Part shown: in pieces, positions 11,694 through 58,227 of the stretch | Numbering within the stretch: position 1 is the first letter of the stretch | Layout of the letters: each line of letters begins with the position of its first letter | From: Octopus sinensis | Lineage: Eukaryota | Length of the DNA stretch: 64,000 nucleotides | Assembly: GCF_006345805.1 (NCBI RefSeq) | Contig: NC_043001.1 | Location: 96,534,001-96,598,000 of the forward strand | Reading direction: 5' to 3' | The notes under the pieces: generated by a model | Seen by the model: only the letters and a program-made list of their open reading frames with translations | Told to the model about the DNA's origin: nothing | Databases searched by the model: none | Position numbers and translations under genes: made by a program

Positions 11694-12059
11694 TGTCTCT
11701 TTATAAGTGTTCTAAAATCTTTACAGCCTTGGTTTTTTTTATCTCATTCTGAATTTTTTTTTTATATGTATATATATATATAATGGAATAATTTCTATGA
11801 AGCATTGTGTAGAATATATTGTATAAAGGATCATGGCTAAGGCCAAAACAATGCGAATTAAATGCAAGGTAAATCACAAGAAAATAAATATAATGTAGAC
11901 TCATCTTGTATTCAATATTTCGGGGTTATGACCCCATTTTCAAGAAAATAAACGAATGTTACCAATGTGCGTATGTATGAGCATGTGTGGAGTGCACGTT
12001 CTTGTGATTTACCTTGCATTTACTTCGCATTATTTTGGCCTATATATATATATATACAT

Positions 12060-13575: not shown

Positions 13576-14854
13576 AAACTAAAGTAATGAAATATATACA
13601 CTGGAGATCAAATGGAGTTGACAGAAAAAGGAAGAGTTCTTTGCAGCTCTGCTGTCTGGAAACGTGTGAGTTCTAGCATATCTTGTGCATTTGAAGATTT
13701 TCTTGTAAATTTCTCACTTTCTTCGATGTTTCTCAATGTTGTCATCATCAATGATCATCATCAGCAACTTTTTAAATAAAGGCGGTTCTTATGAACTGTC
13801 TGAAGTTTCTGCTATAATAATAGCGGCAGTTATCGTTTTTGATAATACAGGCACCGTATGTTGTCTTCTACGATTGTCTAATAGCGAATCCTTCCCAATT
13901 TTAGAAGAGGGGGTGAGTGAAAGAGAAAGAGAAGAGCCGCGAGAGAGGGAGGAAGAGATAAGGCGAGAGGGGACTGAGACACATTGAGAGTGTGAGAGAG
14001 AGAAGAATTAGCGCCATTGCTTGACACGTACTTTCTTAATCGATGAAGAATAAAATTCAACTCGAAGTGTTTTGAACTTAAAGCGTATAAATATAGAACA
14101 AATACCGTAGGACATTGTATCCAACTTTCCATCGGCGGTATCAATTCACCGTGTTAAGAGCAGGTTAATTTGATTTTATGAAATAACACACTCGACAGCA
14201 GACGCACAATACTTATAATATATAGGTACTTGAAGGTAGAGAGCAGGCAAAATCGTTATCAAACCTGGCGAAATGCTTAGCGGCGTCTTGTCTGTCTTTA
14301 GGTTCTGAGGTCAAATACCGCCGAGCTCGGCTTTGCCCTCCATTCTATCGGGATGAAAGACAAAGTCGATAACATAAGCACCAGTTGAGCACTAGGGCTT
14401 GCCTTAATCACTGTCCCGAAATTTCTGGCCTTGTGCCAAAATTTGAAACCAATATATACATATTTGATAAACACGAACGCAGGAACGCACACATACTATT
14501 GTATAGGTATATGTACACGTGTAAATGTAATGTTAATGTAATGGTATAAAATTAAATACAGAGCAATTTTGATAGTTTATAGCCAAAACTTTGCGGTAAA
14601 CAGATTTGTATTTGTATTCCTGTGTTTTAAAACGAGCAAAAACTATATAATATTGAAGATAAGATAAATGACAAAGACAAAAGAATAAAGACATTGATTA
14701 TATGTGACAGCAACATGAATCCAGCCAGATGGTTTGTAGAAGAATTTAATAAATTCATCTGTGATAAAGAGTGGAGAAGCTAACGTTTTGGGAGCAAATC
14801 GTTCGTAAGTATGTGAGGAAAATACTTGATTAATTTTCAGTGTTTCAAGAATTC

Positions 14855-15005
14855 AGTTGCAGCGTGGAAGGTGTTTATAAGCCATTTAAGAAACACAAAA
14901 ACCGTTAGATTCACTTCAACAGTTAAATTTAATTTGCCAAGATATTTTCGTCGCTTTGAGACCGCGACCTCTTCACTGACAAAATTCCGTGGTGCATCTC
15001 AAGAA
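14855..15005 (-). mobile_element. Short HHR-bearing repeat (PLE terminal-repeat-like), copy 1
   Basis: Homologous to 36499-36648. The minus strand at 14933-14983 reads TTTGTCA GTGAAGA G GTCGC..GCGAC GAAA ATATCT TGGCAAA. Confidence 0.65.
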
Positions 15006-20365: not shown

Positions 20366-20542
20366 CAGTTCTATATTTAAGGAATGAGGAATTATGTACA
20401 TTATTTACATTTGTCGGATATTTGTCCTCATCATGTTAGTTGTTAACACAACGTTTCGGCTGATATACCCTCCAGCCTTCATCAGTTGTCTTGGGGAAAT
20501 TTCGAACCTGGGTTTTCATTCGTAAGGTATGTAAATAATGTG
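20366..20542 (-). mobile_element. 5'-truncated HHR-bearing element (family E) with 10-bp TSD
   Basis: TTCAAGACTT at 20356-20365 and 20543-20552. Internal sequence is homologous to 55684-55830. Confidence 0.8.
20445..20491 (-). ncRNA. Minimal type-I hammerhead ribozyme motif, canonical core
   Basis: GACAA CTGATGA A GGCTG gagggtatat CAGCC GAAAC GT T GTGTT. Palindromic AACGTT stem III. The stem I closing pair is mismatched in this copy. Confidence 0.75.
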
Positions 20543-35041: not shown

Positions 35042-35529
35042 AGTCCTGCGCACTACGGGCCTAAAAGTTAAAGTTGTAGAAAAGACAGGTAGGACTATCA
35101 AATCGGCATTATGCAGATCATATCCATCTGATAGAATCACCTGTCAGAGTAATTGTGTGTTCGACAAATCCACACGTAAATTGTAAAACCAAGGGCACTG
35201 TATACCAGATTAAGTGCCAGGAGGGAGCTTGCGCGGCTAACCCGGAGTCATACATAGGTGAGACCTCTAGAAGCATCAATGATAGGTTCAAAGAACACCT
35301 GGACAACTACATTGAAAGGAAGCCAAACTCCATCTTCTACCAACATGCTGTAGACTGCCACAAGGGATCCTTAGGGGAGCTTAAGTTGAACATCCTATCA
35401 ACACATCCCACCGATGCAATGTTGAGACAGGTCACAGAAGCTGTTTGTATACAAGAATACAAACCTACTCTCAACCGAAAGTCCGAATGGAATAACATCC
35501 AGAACCCATTCAGAAGGACTATTCTATAA
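35042..35529 (+). mobile_element. Second PLE family: GIY-YIG endonuclease C-terminal fragment
   Basis: CKTKGTVYQIKC...YIGETSRSINDRFKEH...RQVTEAVCIQEYKPTLNRKSEW. 5'-truncated at (TA)n. Confidence 0.9.
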
Positions 35530-36516
35530 CCACCCCTCTCTCTCTCTCCTTTCACCTGTAGTCCTTACATGCAGGTTGCAATGCGTATGTGCAGTTATAT
35601 ACAACGGTATGAGCAGACGTTGTTTGATACGAACAGTTGCACCTAGGCGTTGTATCCATTCACGGTTAGACGATTGAGAGGAACAAACACACACCCCCAC
35701 ACATATATATATATGTTGTGCGTCTATACTAACATATATGTAGATATGTATACAACCTTCAGCAAAGTAACAGTCATGTACACAACTTGGACGGACACAT
35801 GCCAGTACACGGACATACGTTCACATACACATACACATGTACACACTCTCATGGACACATCTACCCATTCTCCTAGACACTCACATACATACGTAGCACA
35901 TGAATACAAACATACATACATACCTACGTATGGGCATACACACGTACATACGCACGTACATGTACGCACACACATACATGGGCACATGCATACGAGCGCG
36001 TATACATACATACGCACATGCATACGTATGTACATACACACATACATACATACATACATACATACATACATACATACATACATACATACATCATACATAC
36101 ATACATACGCACATACATACATACATACGAACAATAGTAAAACATTAGTTCTGTGATATAGAGATAGAAATCTGATAATAGATTTTAGGGTATAGTTCTT
36201 GTGAGCAAGCGTCATAAATTCACTTTCTAGCCTCGGCCGTAGGGAGTTGAAATTTGATAGCGTTGTGATGAGTGGTCACTCTACATCCATCCATCGCTAA
36301 AGGTTTATAACTTTATGTTTTATAGAGTGTATGTGCGTGCTTATACACACACGTACGTGTATACATACATACATACATACATACATACATGCACACACAG
36401 GCGTATGTGCGTACATGCATACGTACATACATACACACATGTATGCATACATACACACATACATACGTACATATATATGACGAACTAACTGTTACTTTCT
36501 TAGATGCAGCACGGAC

Positions 36517-36566
36517 TTTGTCAGTGAACAGGTCGCGGATTTTAGCGACGAAAATATTTTGACAAA
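36517..36566 (+). ncRNA. Minimal HHR motif with G3-C8 core, in short repeat 36499-36648
   Basis: TTTGTCA GTGAACA G GTCGC ggatttta GCGAC GAAA ATATT T TGACAAA: perfect 7-bp stem I, 5-bp stem II, palindrome AATATT. Confidence 0.65.
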
Positions 36567-36687
36567 TTAAACTTAAATGTTGGAGTGAATCGAACGGCTT
36601 TTGTGTGTTTCTTAAATGGCTTATAAACACCTTCCACGCTGCAATTGCATATATATATAGATACATATATATATATATTTATATATA

Positions 36688-57806: not shown

Positions 57807-58227
57807 CTCTGAGCGAGATATAGACAGTAACTGCTCTATAACATAAGGGGGATCAGCCATCTGAATGTGGCTAGGGACAGGGCGGGGTGGTGGGTGTGTT
57901 ACTGATGCAGTTACTGTCTATATCTCGCTCAGAGATTTATTATTGTTTTCGAACGGATTTTCTACGCCAGTGACTGTGGTTACTGTGAAAATCCCTATAT
58001 ATCCAGCCTGTAGAGGAAGTCCCTCAACGAAGAACGGTACTTGCCATGCGTTGACAAGAGGCAATAACCTCGAAACCGGTCCGTATGTAGTATCCGTATC
58101 TTCGGGGAGGCTGATCTCCCTTTGCAGGCTGGCAAGGACACCGAGATGGTGTCAGCCCTTCTGGTGACGTTGATGATCGCCCTGTCCCTAGCCACATTCA
58201 GATGGCTGATCCCCCTTATGTTGTATA
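57801..58227 (+). mobile_element. (TA)n-embedded element with two inverted-repeat pairs and an HHR
   Basis: IR-A 57803-57834 / 57907-57938; IR-B 57837-57884 / 58178-58225; HHR at 58045-58087. Confidence 0.8.
58035..58096 (+). ncRNA. Type-I hammerhead ribozyme motif with U3-A8 core and GUC cleavage triplet
   Basis: CATGCG TTGACAA GAGG caataa CCTC GAAAC CG GT C CGTATG. Stem I is extendable (CGGTACT/AGTATCCG); palindrome ACCGGT. Confidence 0.8.

What the first reader, a model, noticed from the sequence alone, without database searches (positions are those of the whole stretch)
36499..36648. Candidate natural G3-C8 (inverted tertiary pair) hammerhead
Perfect 7-bp stem I (TTTGTCA/TGACAAA), 5-bp stem II (GTCGC/GCGAC), GAAA and an AATATT palindrome surround the core GUGAACA, with C3 and G8 swapped. 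I know the swap mainly as an engineered compensatory mutant that rescues activity; I cannot check whether natural examples are catalogued. The sister copy at 14933-14983 keeps G3 and both stems with a different loop II, but has G8 and a U16.1C change, so the family state at position 8 is unresolved from two copies.
Basis: partly seen in the sequence, partly recalled or inferred. Interest (0 to 1): 0.75.

Follow-up and report, generated by a model that had tools for sequence, protein, structure and literature searches.

The report
Swapped-core hammerhead in Penelope retroelement
About 6,000 copies of a Penelope-type jumping gene, in what is likely an octopus genome, carry a hammerhead-shaped RNA motif whose two paired core letters are reversed (G-C), while related elements use C-G or U-A at the same spot, which suggests the pairing is under selection and that the RNA likely still cuts itself, although cutting has not been tested.

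Summary
Observation confirmed. Window 36517-36566 is a minimal type I hammerhead motif at the 3' end of a 5'-truncated Penelope-like element (PLE; 35042-36647). G3-C8 is the family state: 5965 of 6613 genome-wide matches, against 211 G3-G8, 32 C3-C8 and 11 C3-G8. The sister copy at 14.9 kb is a decayed older copy. A tandem copy has two such motifs 4361 nt apart around an RT + GIY-YIG ORF that starts 56 nt after the predicted cut (L185). The sister PLE family in this genome keeps C3-G8 (1443 matches). Metagenomic relatives have C3-G8 or U3-A8, so G3-C8 is most likely derived. Cleavage is untested, and genomic truncations show no clear peak at the predicted cut site. In the papers I could read, natural U3-A8 is known and G3-C8 appears only as an engineered partial rescue; Lünse 2017 and Hammann 2012 were not available. 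This scan has reported the same kind of motif before on other DNA of this and other genomes. Verdict: new variant of a known kind.

The parts
35042..36647 (+). 5'-truncated copy of a Penelope-like retroelement (3' end of ORF, 3' UTR, pLTR with hammerhead motif), flanked by (TA)n
   Evidence: blastn to the unit of tandem copy L185: 93.6% over 1713 columns, gaps in microsatellites included, and 99.3% over the pLTR end; flanks read
35043..35529 (+). Remnant of the ORF's C-terminus (residues 631-793 of the L032 protein: Zn linker and GIY-YIG-type endonuclease), one frameshift near 35155
   Evidence: tblastn 95-98% identity in two frames
36517..36523 (+). Hammerhead stem I, 5' strand
36524..36531 (+). 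Core G3 U4 G5 A6 A7 C8 A9 plus one inserted G before G10.1; G3 = 36524, C8 = 36529
   Evidence: family tally; inserted G in 13 of 13 rows of the clade alignment
36532..36549 (+). Stem II (5 bp, G10.1-C11.1 closing the core) with 8-nt loop; the loop differs between subfamilies
36550..36559 (+). G12 A13 A14 A15.1, 6-nt palindrome (predicted intermolecular stem III), U17; predicted cleavage after 36559
   Evidence: position by analogy to hammerhead numbering; cleavage not shown
36560..36566 (+). Hammerhead stem I, 3' strand
36616..36647 (+). First codons of the next unit's ORF (ATG at 36616, protein start MAYKHLPRC); the copy ends at the shorter of the family's two fixed 3' ends
   Evidence: the same sequence opens a 608-aa frame in tandem copy L185; two 3' ends about 60 nt apart
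14851..15005 (-). Older-subfamily pLTR fragment (sister copy) with G3-G8 and U16.1C, a decayed copy
   Evidence: 86% identity to the L185 pLTR; alignment

Best explanation
This is a minimal type I hammerhead motif in the terminal repeat of a high-copy Penelope-like retroelement family, with the core 3-8 pair reversed to G3-C8, and it likely still self-cleaves slowly as a dimer, possibly with help from the element's own protein. Shown: the motif, its G3-C8 family state, its place about 1 kb behind the ORF and 56 nt ahead of the next unit's start codon, and Watson-Crick alternatives at 3-8 in related elements. Inferred: two motifs of a tandem or read-through transcript pair through the 6-nt palindrome to build stem III; G3-C8 stacks on stem I and holds the 2'-OH of nucleotide 8 at the scissile bond, as C3-G8 does; cutting at both motifs would release a unit-length RNA of about 4.36 kb with a 56-nt leader. 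Also inferred: the swap arose once, on the stem of this family, from a C3-G8 ancestor.
For: Family state 5965 of 6613; reversed-pattern control 1. 29 of 45 listed blast matches are 100% identical, so the family spread recently with this core. Tandem copy L185 has two direct G3-C8 motifs around the ORF, with predicted cuts 4361 nt apart. The sister family has C3-G8, a doubly changed stem II pair and 1443 matches; its ORF remnants are 42-44% identical and group with this family at UFBoot 100 against metagenomic relatives. Of 16 closer metagenomic relatives whose ORF end was held, 6 show a hammerhead: 4 C3-G8 and 2 U3-A8. None of the 76 loci gave G3-C8. In 13 hand-picked motifs positions 3 and 8 pair in 13 of 13 (CG 8, GC 3, UA 2), the other core letters are invariant and stem II cells are 100% paired. 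No other letter reaches 3% at 36524 or 36529 in contigs of four runs with four organism labels. In a lizard PLE hammerhead the single mutants are dead and C3G/G8C partly restores cleavage, which needs the PLE protein (PMC11167929, passages).
Against: No cleavage was measured. Copies do not clearly pile up at the predicted cut: about 66 junctions estimated there (16 of 30 loci x 124) against 34-41 and 51-85 one and two bases downstream. In the lizard element, cleavage was dispensable for insertion in vitro and no reads ended at the site. Stem III is all A-U; the dimer hammerhead fold scores -27.2 kcal/mol against 2 x -13.3 for monomers and -31.3 for a competing dimer. The inserted nucleotide is G, where the published consensus has not-G (PMC4209133 supplement passage). 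G3-G8 copies are 6.6 times as common as C3-C8 (211 vs 32), and several old ORF-bearing copies lack C8 (L192 upstream, L195/196/198/200, L201). The three G-C rows are one event. I chose the rows; L317 was admitted by a rule that already required a Watson-Crick 3-8 pair; 10 of 16 close relatives showed no hammerhead.
Confidence: 0.68

Rival explanations
1. The motif is a catalytically dead or nearly dead hammerhead relic. The two changes were fixed one after the other in source elements because cleavage is not needed, and the fold persists as a protein-binding, translation or RT-pausing structure.
For: No peak of junctions at the cut. Cleavage was dispensable in vitro in the lizard PLE. Naiad PLEs spread without canonical hammerheads (PMC8557442, passages). 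Excess of G3-G8 copies, and G3 without C8 in some old copies. 10 of 16 close relatives gave no hammerhead.
Against: The only two core differences from the sister family fall on the two partners of one tertiary pair and restore pairing (about 1 in 200 by a rough post-hoc count, my inference). Relatives independently show U3-A8. All other core letters are invariant across a clade with 30-48% protein identity.
Confidence: 0.22
2. The core swap is selected tuning: G3-C8 makes a slower or more protein-dependent ribozyme, so that enough uncut RNA survives for reverse transcription to run through the site, and G3-G8 copies are favoured at insertion for the same reason.
For: RT starts downstream of the motif and must copy across the cut site; most sampled copies extend through it. 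C8-to-G is in 211 of 6613 copies, while C-to-G at other C's in the same ACA context is 1/179, 0/173, 0/96 and 2/84. Engineered G3-C8 is only a partial rescue.
Against: Other inactivating changes such as C3-C8 are not enriched (32). An unselected sample had 0 G3-G8 of 43. Part of the excess is duplicated loci (L072-074) and older subfamilies. No rates are known.
Confidence: 0.1

Closest known systems
Minimal type I hammerheads (min-HHR) in pLTRs of metazoan Penelope-like elements (Cervera and De la Peña 2014, PMC4209133; I read abstract, results, discussion and supplement passages)
   Same: Position in the pLTR on the ORF's sense strand, no monomeric stem III, palindromic 15/16 region, one nucleotide between A9 and G10.1, G10.1-C11.1 pair, mostly solo truncated copies, inverted pairs.
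   Different: G3-C8 instead of C3-G8 (the paper names only U3-A8 as a core covariation); the inserted nucleotide is G (their consensus: not G); stem I is 7 bp.
Natural U3-A8 core variants (Perreault et al. 2011, PMC3088659, section 8 read, figures not held; Schistosoma PLEs in PMC4209133)
   Same: Natural compensatory change of the 3-8 tertiary pair.
   Different: U3-A8 keeps pyrimidine-3/purine-8 and needs two transitions; G3-C8 reverses the polarity and needs two transversions.
Engineered C3G/G8C double mutant of the Anolis Poseidon (PAc) hammerhead (PMC11167929, passages) and of other hammerheads (PMC8495972, PMC3884650, passages)
   Same: Same base identities at 3 and 8; PAc is also a PLE pLTR motif next to the start codon.
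   Different: Engineered there; here it is the natural majority state of a family with thousands of copies.
EN+ Penelope-like elements of Neptune/Nematis type (PMC8557442, passages)
   Same: Single ORF of over 1000 aa with RT and C-terminal endonuclease, CX3CxxC linker, pLTRs, inverted 5' copies, tail, (TA)n targets.
   Different: Not placed against reference sequences; Pfam gives no hit for this protein itself.

Membership tests
Hammerhead ribozyme (minimal type I, PLE-associated) | Invariant core U4 G5 A6 A9, G12 A13 A14, A15.1-U16.1, H17 | tested here: met
   Read; invariant columns
Hammerhead ribozyme (minimal type I, PLE-associated) | Consensus letters C3 and G8 | tested here: not met
   G3 and C8 in 5965 of 6613 copies
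Hammerhead ribozyme (minimal type I, PLE-associated) | Watson-Crick pair between positions 3 and 8 | tested here: met
   Complementary here and in 13 of 13 chosen clade members, three pair types; pairing in 3D is inferred
Hammerhead ribozyme (minimal type I, PLE-associated) | Stems I and II flank the core; G10.1-C11.1 | tested here: met
   MFE fold; stem II 100% and stem I 75% of cells paired across the clade
Hammerhead ribozyme (minimal type I, PLE-associated) | Palindrome allowing stem III in a dimer | tested here: met
   6-nt palindrome 36553-36558; 82% of cells self-complementary in the clade; energy gain over monomers is marginal
Hammerhead ribozyme (minimal type I, PLE-associated) | Site-specific self-cleavage after N17 | not testable with these tools
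   The indirect genomic test was inconclusive
Rfam hammerhead families | Score at the gathering threshold | tested here: not met
   No match; the canonical C3-G8 motif near 20485 in the same window is missed too, so the models do not cover minimal forms
EN+ Penelope-like element | Single ORF with RT and C-terminal GIY-YIG endonuclease | tested here: met
   Open frames of 793 aa (L032) and 1042 aa (L187, 5'-truncated) with YVDD and YIGET motifs; Pfam 0 hits for this protein, but RVT_1 in 6 and GIY-YIG in 5 of 23 alignment members
EN+ Penelope-like element | pLTR tandem, inverted 5' copy, tail, microsatellite targets | tested here: met
   L185 tandem; L032, L184, L186, L189 inverted; tail at one end; (TA)n flanks
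Neptune clade | CX2-5CxxC linker between RT and EN (shared with Nematis) and placement in an RT tree with references | tested here: inconclusive
   Linker present; no Neptune or Nematis reference was in my tree

The most novel reading that the evidence does not exclude
First natural, family-wide purine-3/pyrimidine-8 hammerhead that cleaves. One PLE clade has used three Watson-Crick pairs (C-G, U-A, G-C) at the catalytic tertiary position, crossing non-pairing intermediates. This would show that PLEs need active self-cleavage in vivo, and that thousands of such ribozymes are invisible to CUGANGA-based searches.
Probability: 0.45. Interest if true: 0.65.

Novelty: new variant of a known kind. 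Interest (0 to 1): 0.5.

Why it matters
Whether the weak minimal hammerheads of animal PLEs must cleave is an open question: in vitro they are slow, and in one reconstituted element cleavage was dispensable. A compensatory double transversion at a catalytic tertiary pair, fixed in a recently spreading family beside C3-G8 and U3-A8 relatives, is evolutionary evidence that the active-site geometry is under selection. It gives a ready natural series for assay: G3-C8, G3-G8, C3-C8, sister-family C3-G8 and relative U3-A8. It also shows that standard descriptors undercount hammerheads. It does not reveal a new chemistry or system.

Tried and rejected
Chance or assembly error: rejected by copy number and controls. 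G3-G8 as family consensus or as one subfamily: rejected. It is 3.2% of copies and found with all loop types; 34 copies need 26 changes on a tree of 155 copies (shuffled mean 31.3; 3 of 500 as low), so there is mild clustering and no clade. C3-G8 within the family: the 7 of 11 such matches that I saw belong to other families. A second abundant G3-C8 family with a stem II not starting GT: 475 matches against 1131 in the reversed control, no repeated hairpin family among the first 100 listed; other stem II starting with GT were not tested. Truncation at the cleavage site: inconclusive. Expression: no RNA holder listed; only contigs could be laid, which cannot show ends or strand. PDB: one weak RT hit. 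Literature searches for natural G3-C8 found only engineered use. Passages of PMC6765202, PMC6155905, PMC10085705 and bioRxiv 10.64898/2026.07.22.740005 held nothing on it. Not held: Lünse et al. (PMC5785218), Hammann 2012 (PMC3334697), Przybilski and Hammann 2007 (PMC1986816), Martick and Scott 2006 (PMC4447102), and one id recalled for Weinberg 2015. Figures, file 1 of the PMC4209133 supplement and Repbase/Dfam were not seen, so a prior record cannot be excluded.

Full report
Observation. Both stems form in the MFE fold (z = -2.95). A structural descriptor finds nothing comparable in 60 simulated windows. Rfam does not recognise it, but it also misses a canonical minimal motif in the same window.

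Family state. The genome is 2.72 Gb and likely an octopus; the best protein hit is named Octopus vulgaris. The 150-base query has 1175 candidates, and 29 of the 45 listed matches are 100% identical, the window's own included. A 17-letter pattern with positions 3 and 8 free gives 6613 matches, control 1. Of these, 5965 are G3-C8, 211 G3-G8, 32 C3-C8 and 11 C3-G8; the remaining 394 were not split. The 7 C3-G8 loci I could view have different flanks and belong to other families. G3-G8 copies occur with every loop-II type and do not form a clade, so the sister copy at 14.9 kb is a decayed older copy. A further 288 matches have a non-G inserted base, mostly with G3-C8 among the first 100 listed. 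Contigs of four public runs with four organism labels show no other letter at 3% or more at either position.

The element. The window copy runs 35042-36647 between (TA)n tracts and holds the ORF's last 160 codons with one frameshift, about 1 kb of UTR, the motif and ten codons of the next unit. L032 carries a 793-aa open frame with an inverted 5' copy; L187 has 1042 aa open. L185 is a tandem pLTR-ORF-pLTR with one frameshift: two direct G3-C8 motifs, predicted cuts 4361 nt apart, start codon 56 nt after the first. The protein has RT motifs, a CX3CxxC linker and a C-terminal YIGET endonuclease. Pfam misses it but hits RVT_1 in 6 and GIY-YIG in 5 of 23 alignment members. By the features given in PMC8557442 (passages) it is an EN+ PLE of Neptune or Nematis type; I did not resolve which.

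Polarity and covariation. A second family in this genome has C3-G8, the same inserted G and a stem II with one pair changed on both sides (1443 matches, control 1). On 270 C-terminal columns (28 rows; L131, L150 and L151 dropped for low coverage; L091 is a long branch) the two families group at UFBoot 100 apart from metagenomic relatives. Of 76 metagenomic loci, 16 closer ones held the ORF end. Four show C3-G8 hammerheads, two U3-A8, ten none; 18 more distant loci show C3-G8; none shows G3-C8. I set aside A-A and G-A descriptor hits and three long-loop hits (L365, L374, L383) as chance. In an alignment of 13 motifs that I chose, U4 G5 A6 A9, the inserted G, G10.1, C11.1 and GAAA are invariant, and positions 3 and 8 pair in every row (CG 8, GC 3, UA 2). 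Caveats: the three GC rows are one event, the rows are related, and L317 came in under a rule that required a Watson-Crick 3-8 pair. G3-C8 is thus most likely derived, once, on this family's stem.

Mechanism. By analogy with PLE minimal hammerheads (PMC4209133, results and discussion read), two motifs would pair through the palindrome to make stem III and cut after U17, releasing a unit-length RNA with a short leader. In the lizard PAc element the single mutants C3G and G8C are dead, the double mutant partly rescues, cleavage needs the PLE protein, and cleavage is not needed for insertion in vitro (PMC11167929, passages). Here the all-A-U stem III gains almost nothing in predicted energy, so slow or protein-assisted cleavage is the likely state. 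I tested whether cDNAs stop at the cut: 16 of 30 loci in the cut-site class were true junctions (about 66 of 124), against 5-6 of 30 (34-41 of 203) and 3 events in 5 of 30 loci (51-85 of 509) one and two bases downstream. That is no clear peak, and microhomology blurs it. Cleavage therefore remains unshown (0.68 for a working ribozyme).

An unexplained point. C8-to-G is 6.6 times as common as G3-to-C, and well above C-to-G at other ACA sites (1/179, 0/173, 0/96, 2/84). Some old ORF-bearing copies have G3 without C8. Duplicated loci and age explain part, and an unselected sample had 0 of 43. A hot spot, an ancestral G3-G8 stage or selection for uncut RNA are all open.

Known and new. Natural U3-A8 is in print (PMC3088659 section 8; PMC4209133). 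Nine searches and the passages read gave G3-C8 only as an engineered mutant. The main surveys by Lünse et al. and Hammann et al. were not held and figures were not visible, so novelty in print is likely but not proven. Earlier notes of this scan describe the same kind of motif in this and other likely octopus genomes and report G3-C8 motifs in protist PLEs. They came after my tally and are not independent support; I did not test the protist claims. Verdict: a real, family-wide core variant of a known ribozyme in a known kind of element; interest 0.5.

Noticed in passing
window 58045-58092 (+): Candidate U3-A8 hammerhead: 6-bp stem I, 4-bp stem II, 6-nt palindrome, C17, inside a segment bounded by an inverted repeat of about 45 bases (about 57850-57895 and 58165-58212). 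The lax descriptor expects 0.017 hits per window. No copy in the 389 loci held.
   Followed up: partly
window about 11905-11950 (-): Second candidate U3-A8 minimal hammerhead with an inserted U and a 5-bp stem II; no copy in the 389 loci held.
   Followed up: partly
window about 20440-20490 (-): Canonical C3-G8 minimal hammerhead of another family. With the U3-A8 candidates, this one window holds three Watson-Crick versions of the 3-8 pair.
   Followed up: no
L316, L318, L320, L322, L325, L317 and both families in this genome: The nucleotide inserted between A9 and G10.1 is G in 13 of 13 aligned clade members, whereas the published min-HHR consensus has not-G; it may be a clade marker.
   Followed up: partly
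family pLTR, window about 36500-36510: Hot spot of 5' truncation and inversion junctions 10-20 nt upstream of stem I; coverage doubles from 50 to 100 copies at one position. The sample was selected for the core.
   Followed up: no
family 3' ends, window 36647 and about 60 nt further in other copies: Two fixed 3' ends about 30 and 90 nt into the ORF; the 60-nt tail lies at one end of inverted insertions, as expected from two RT initiation sites.
   Followed up: partly
L195, L196, L198, L199, L200, L202, L203: One old broken copy appears amplified by segmental duplication, some near contig or chromosome ends (shared frameshifts in L195 and L199); its upstream motif is G3-G8 with an inserted A, or has a 3-nt core deletion.
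   Followed up: partly
window 36577-36588 (+): A three-codon upstream ORF lies in the predicted 56-nt leader, ahead of the main start codon (read).
   Followed up: no
L353-L389 (metagenome contigs): Distant RT relatives (23-33% identity) carry canonical C3-G8 hammerheads with 6-nt palindromic stem III, most without the inserted nucleotide.
   Followed up: no
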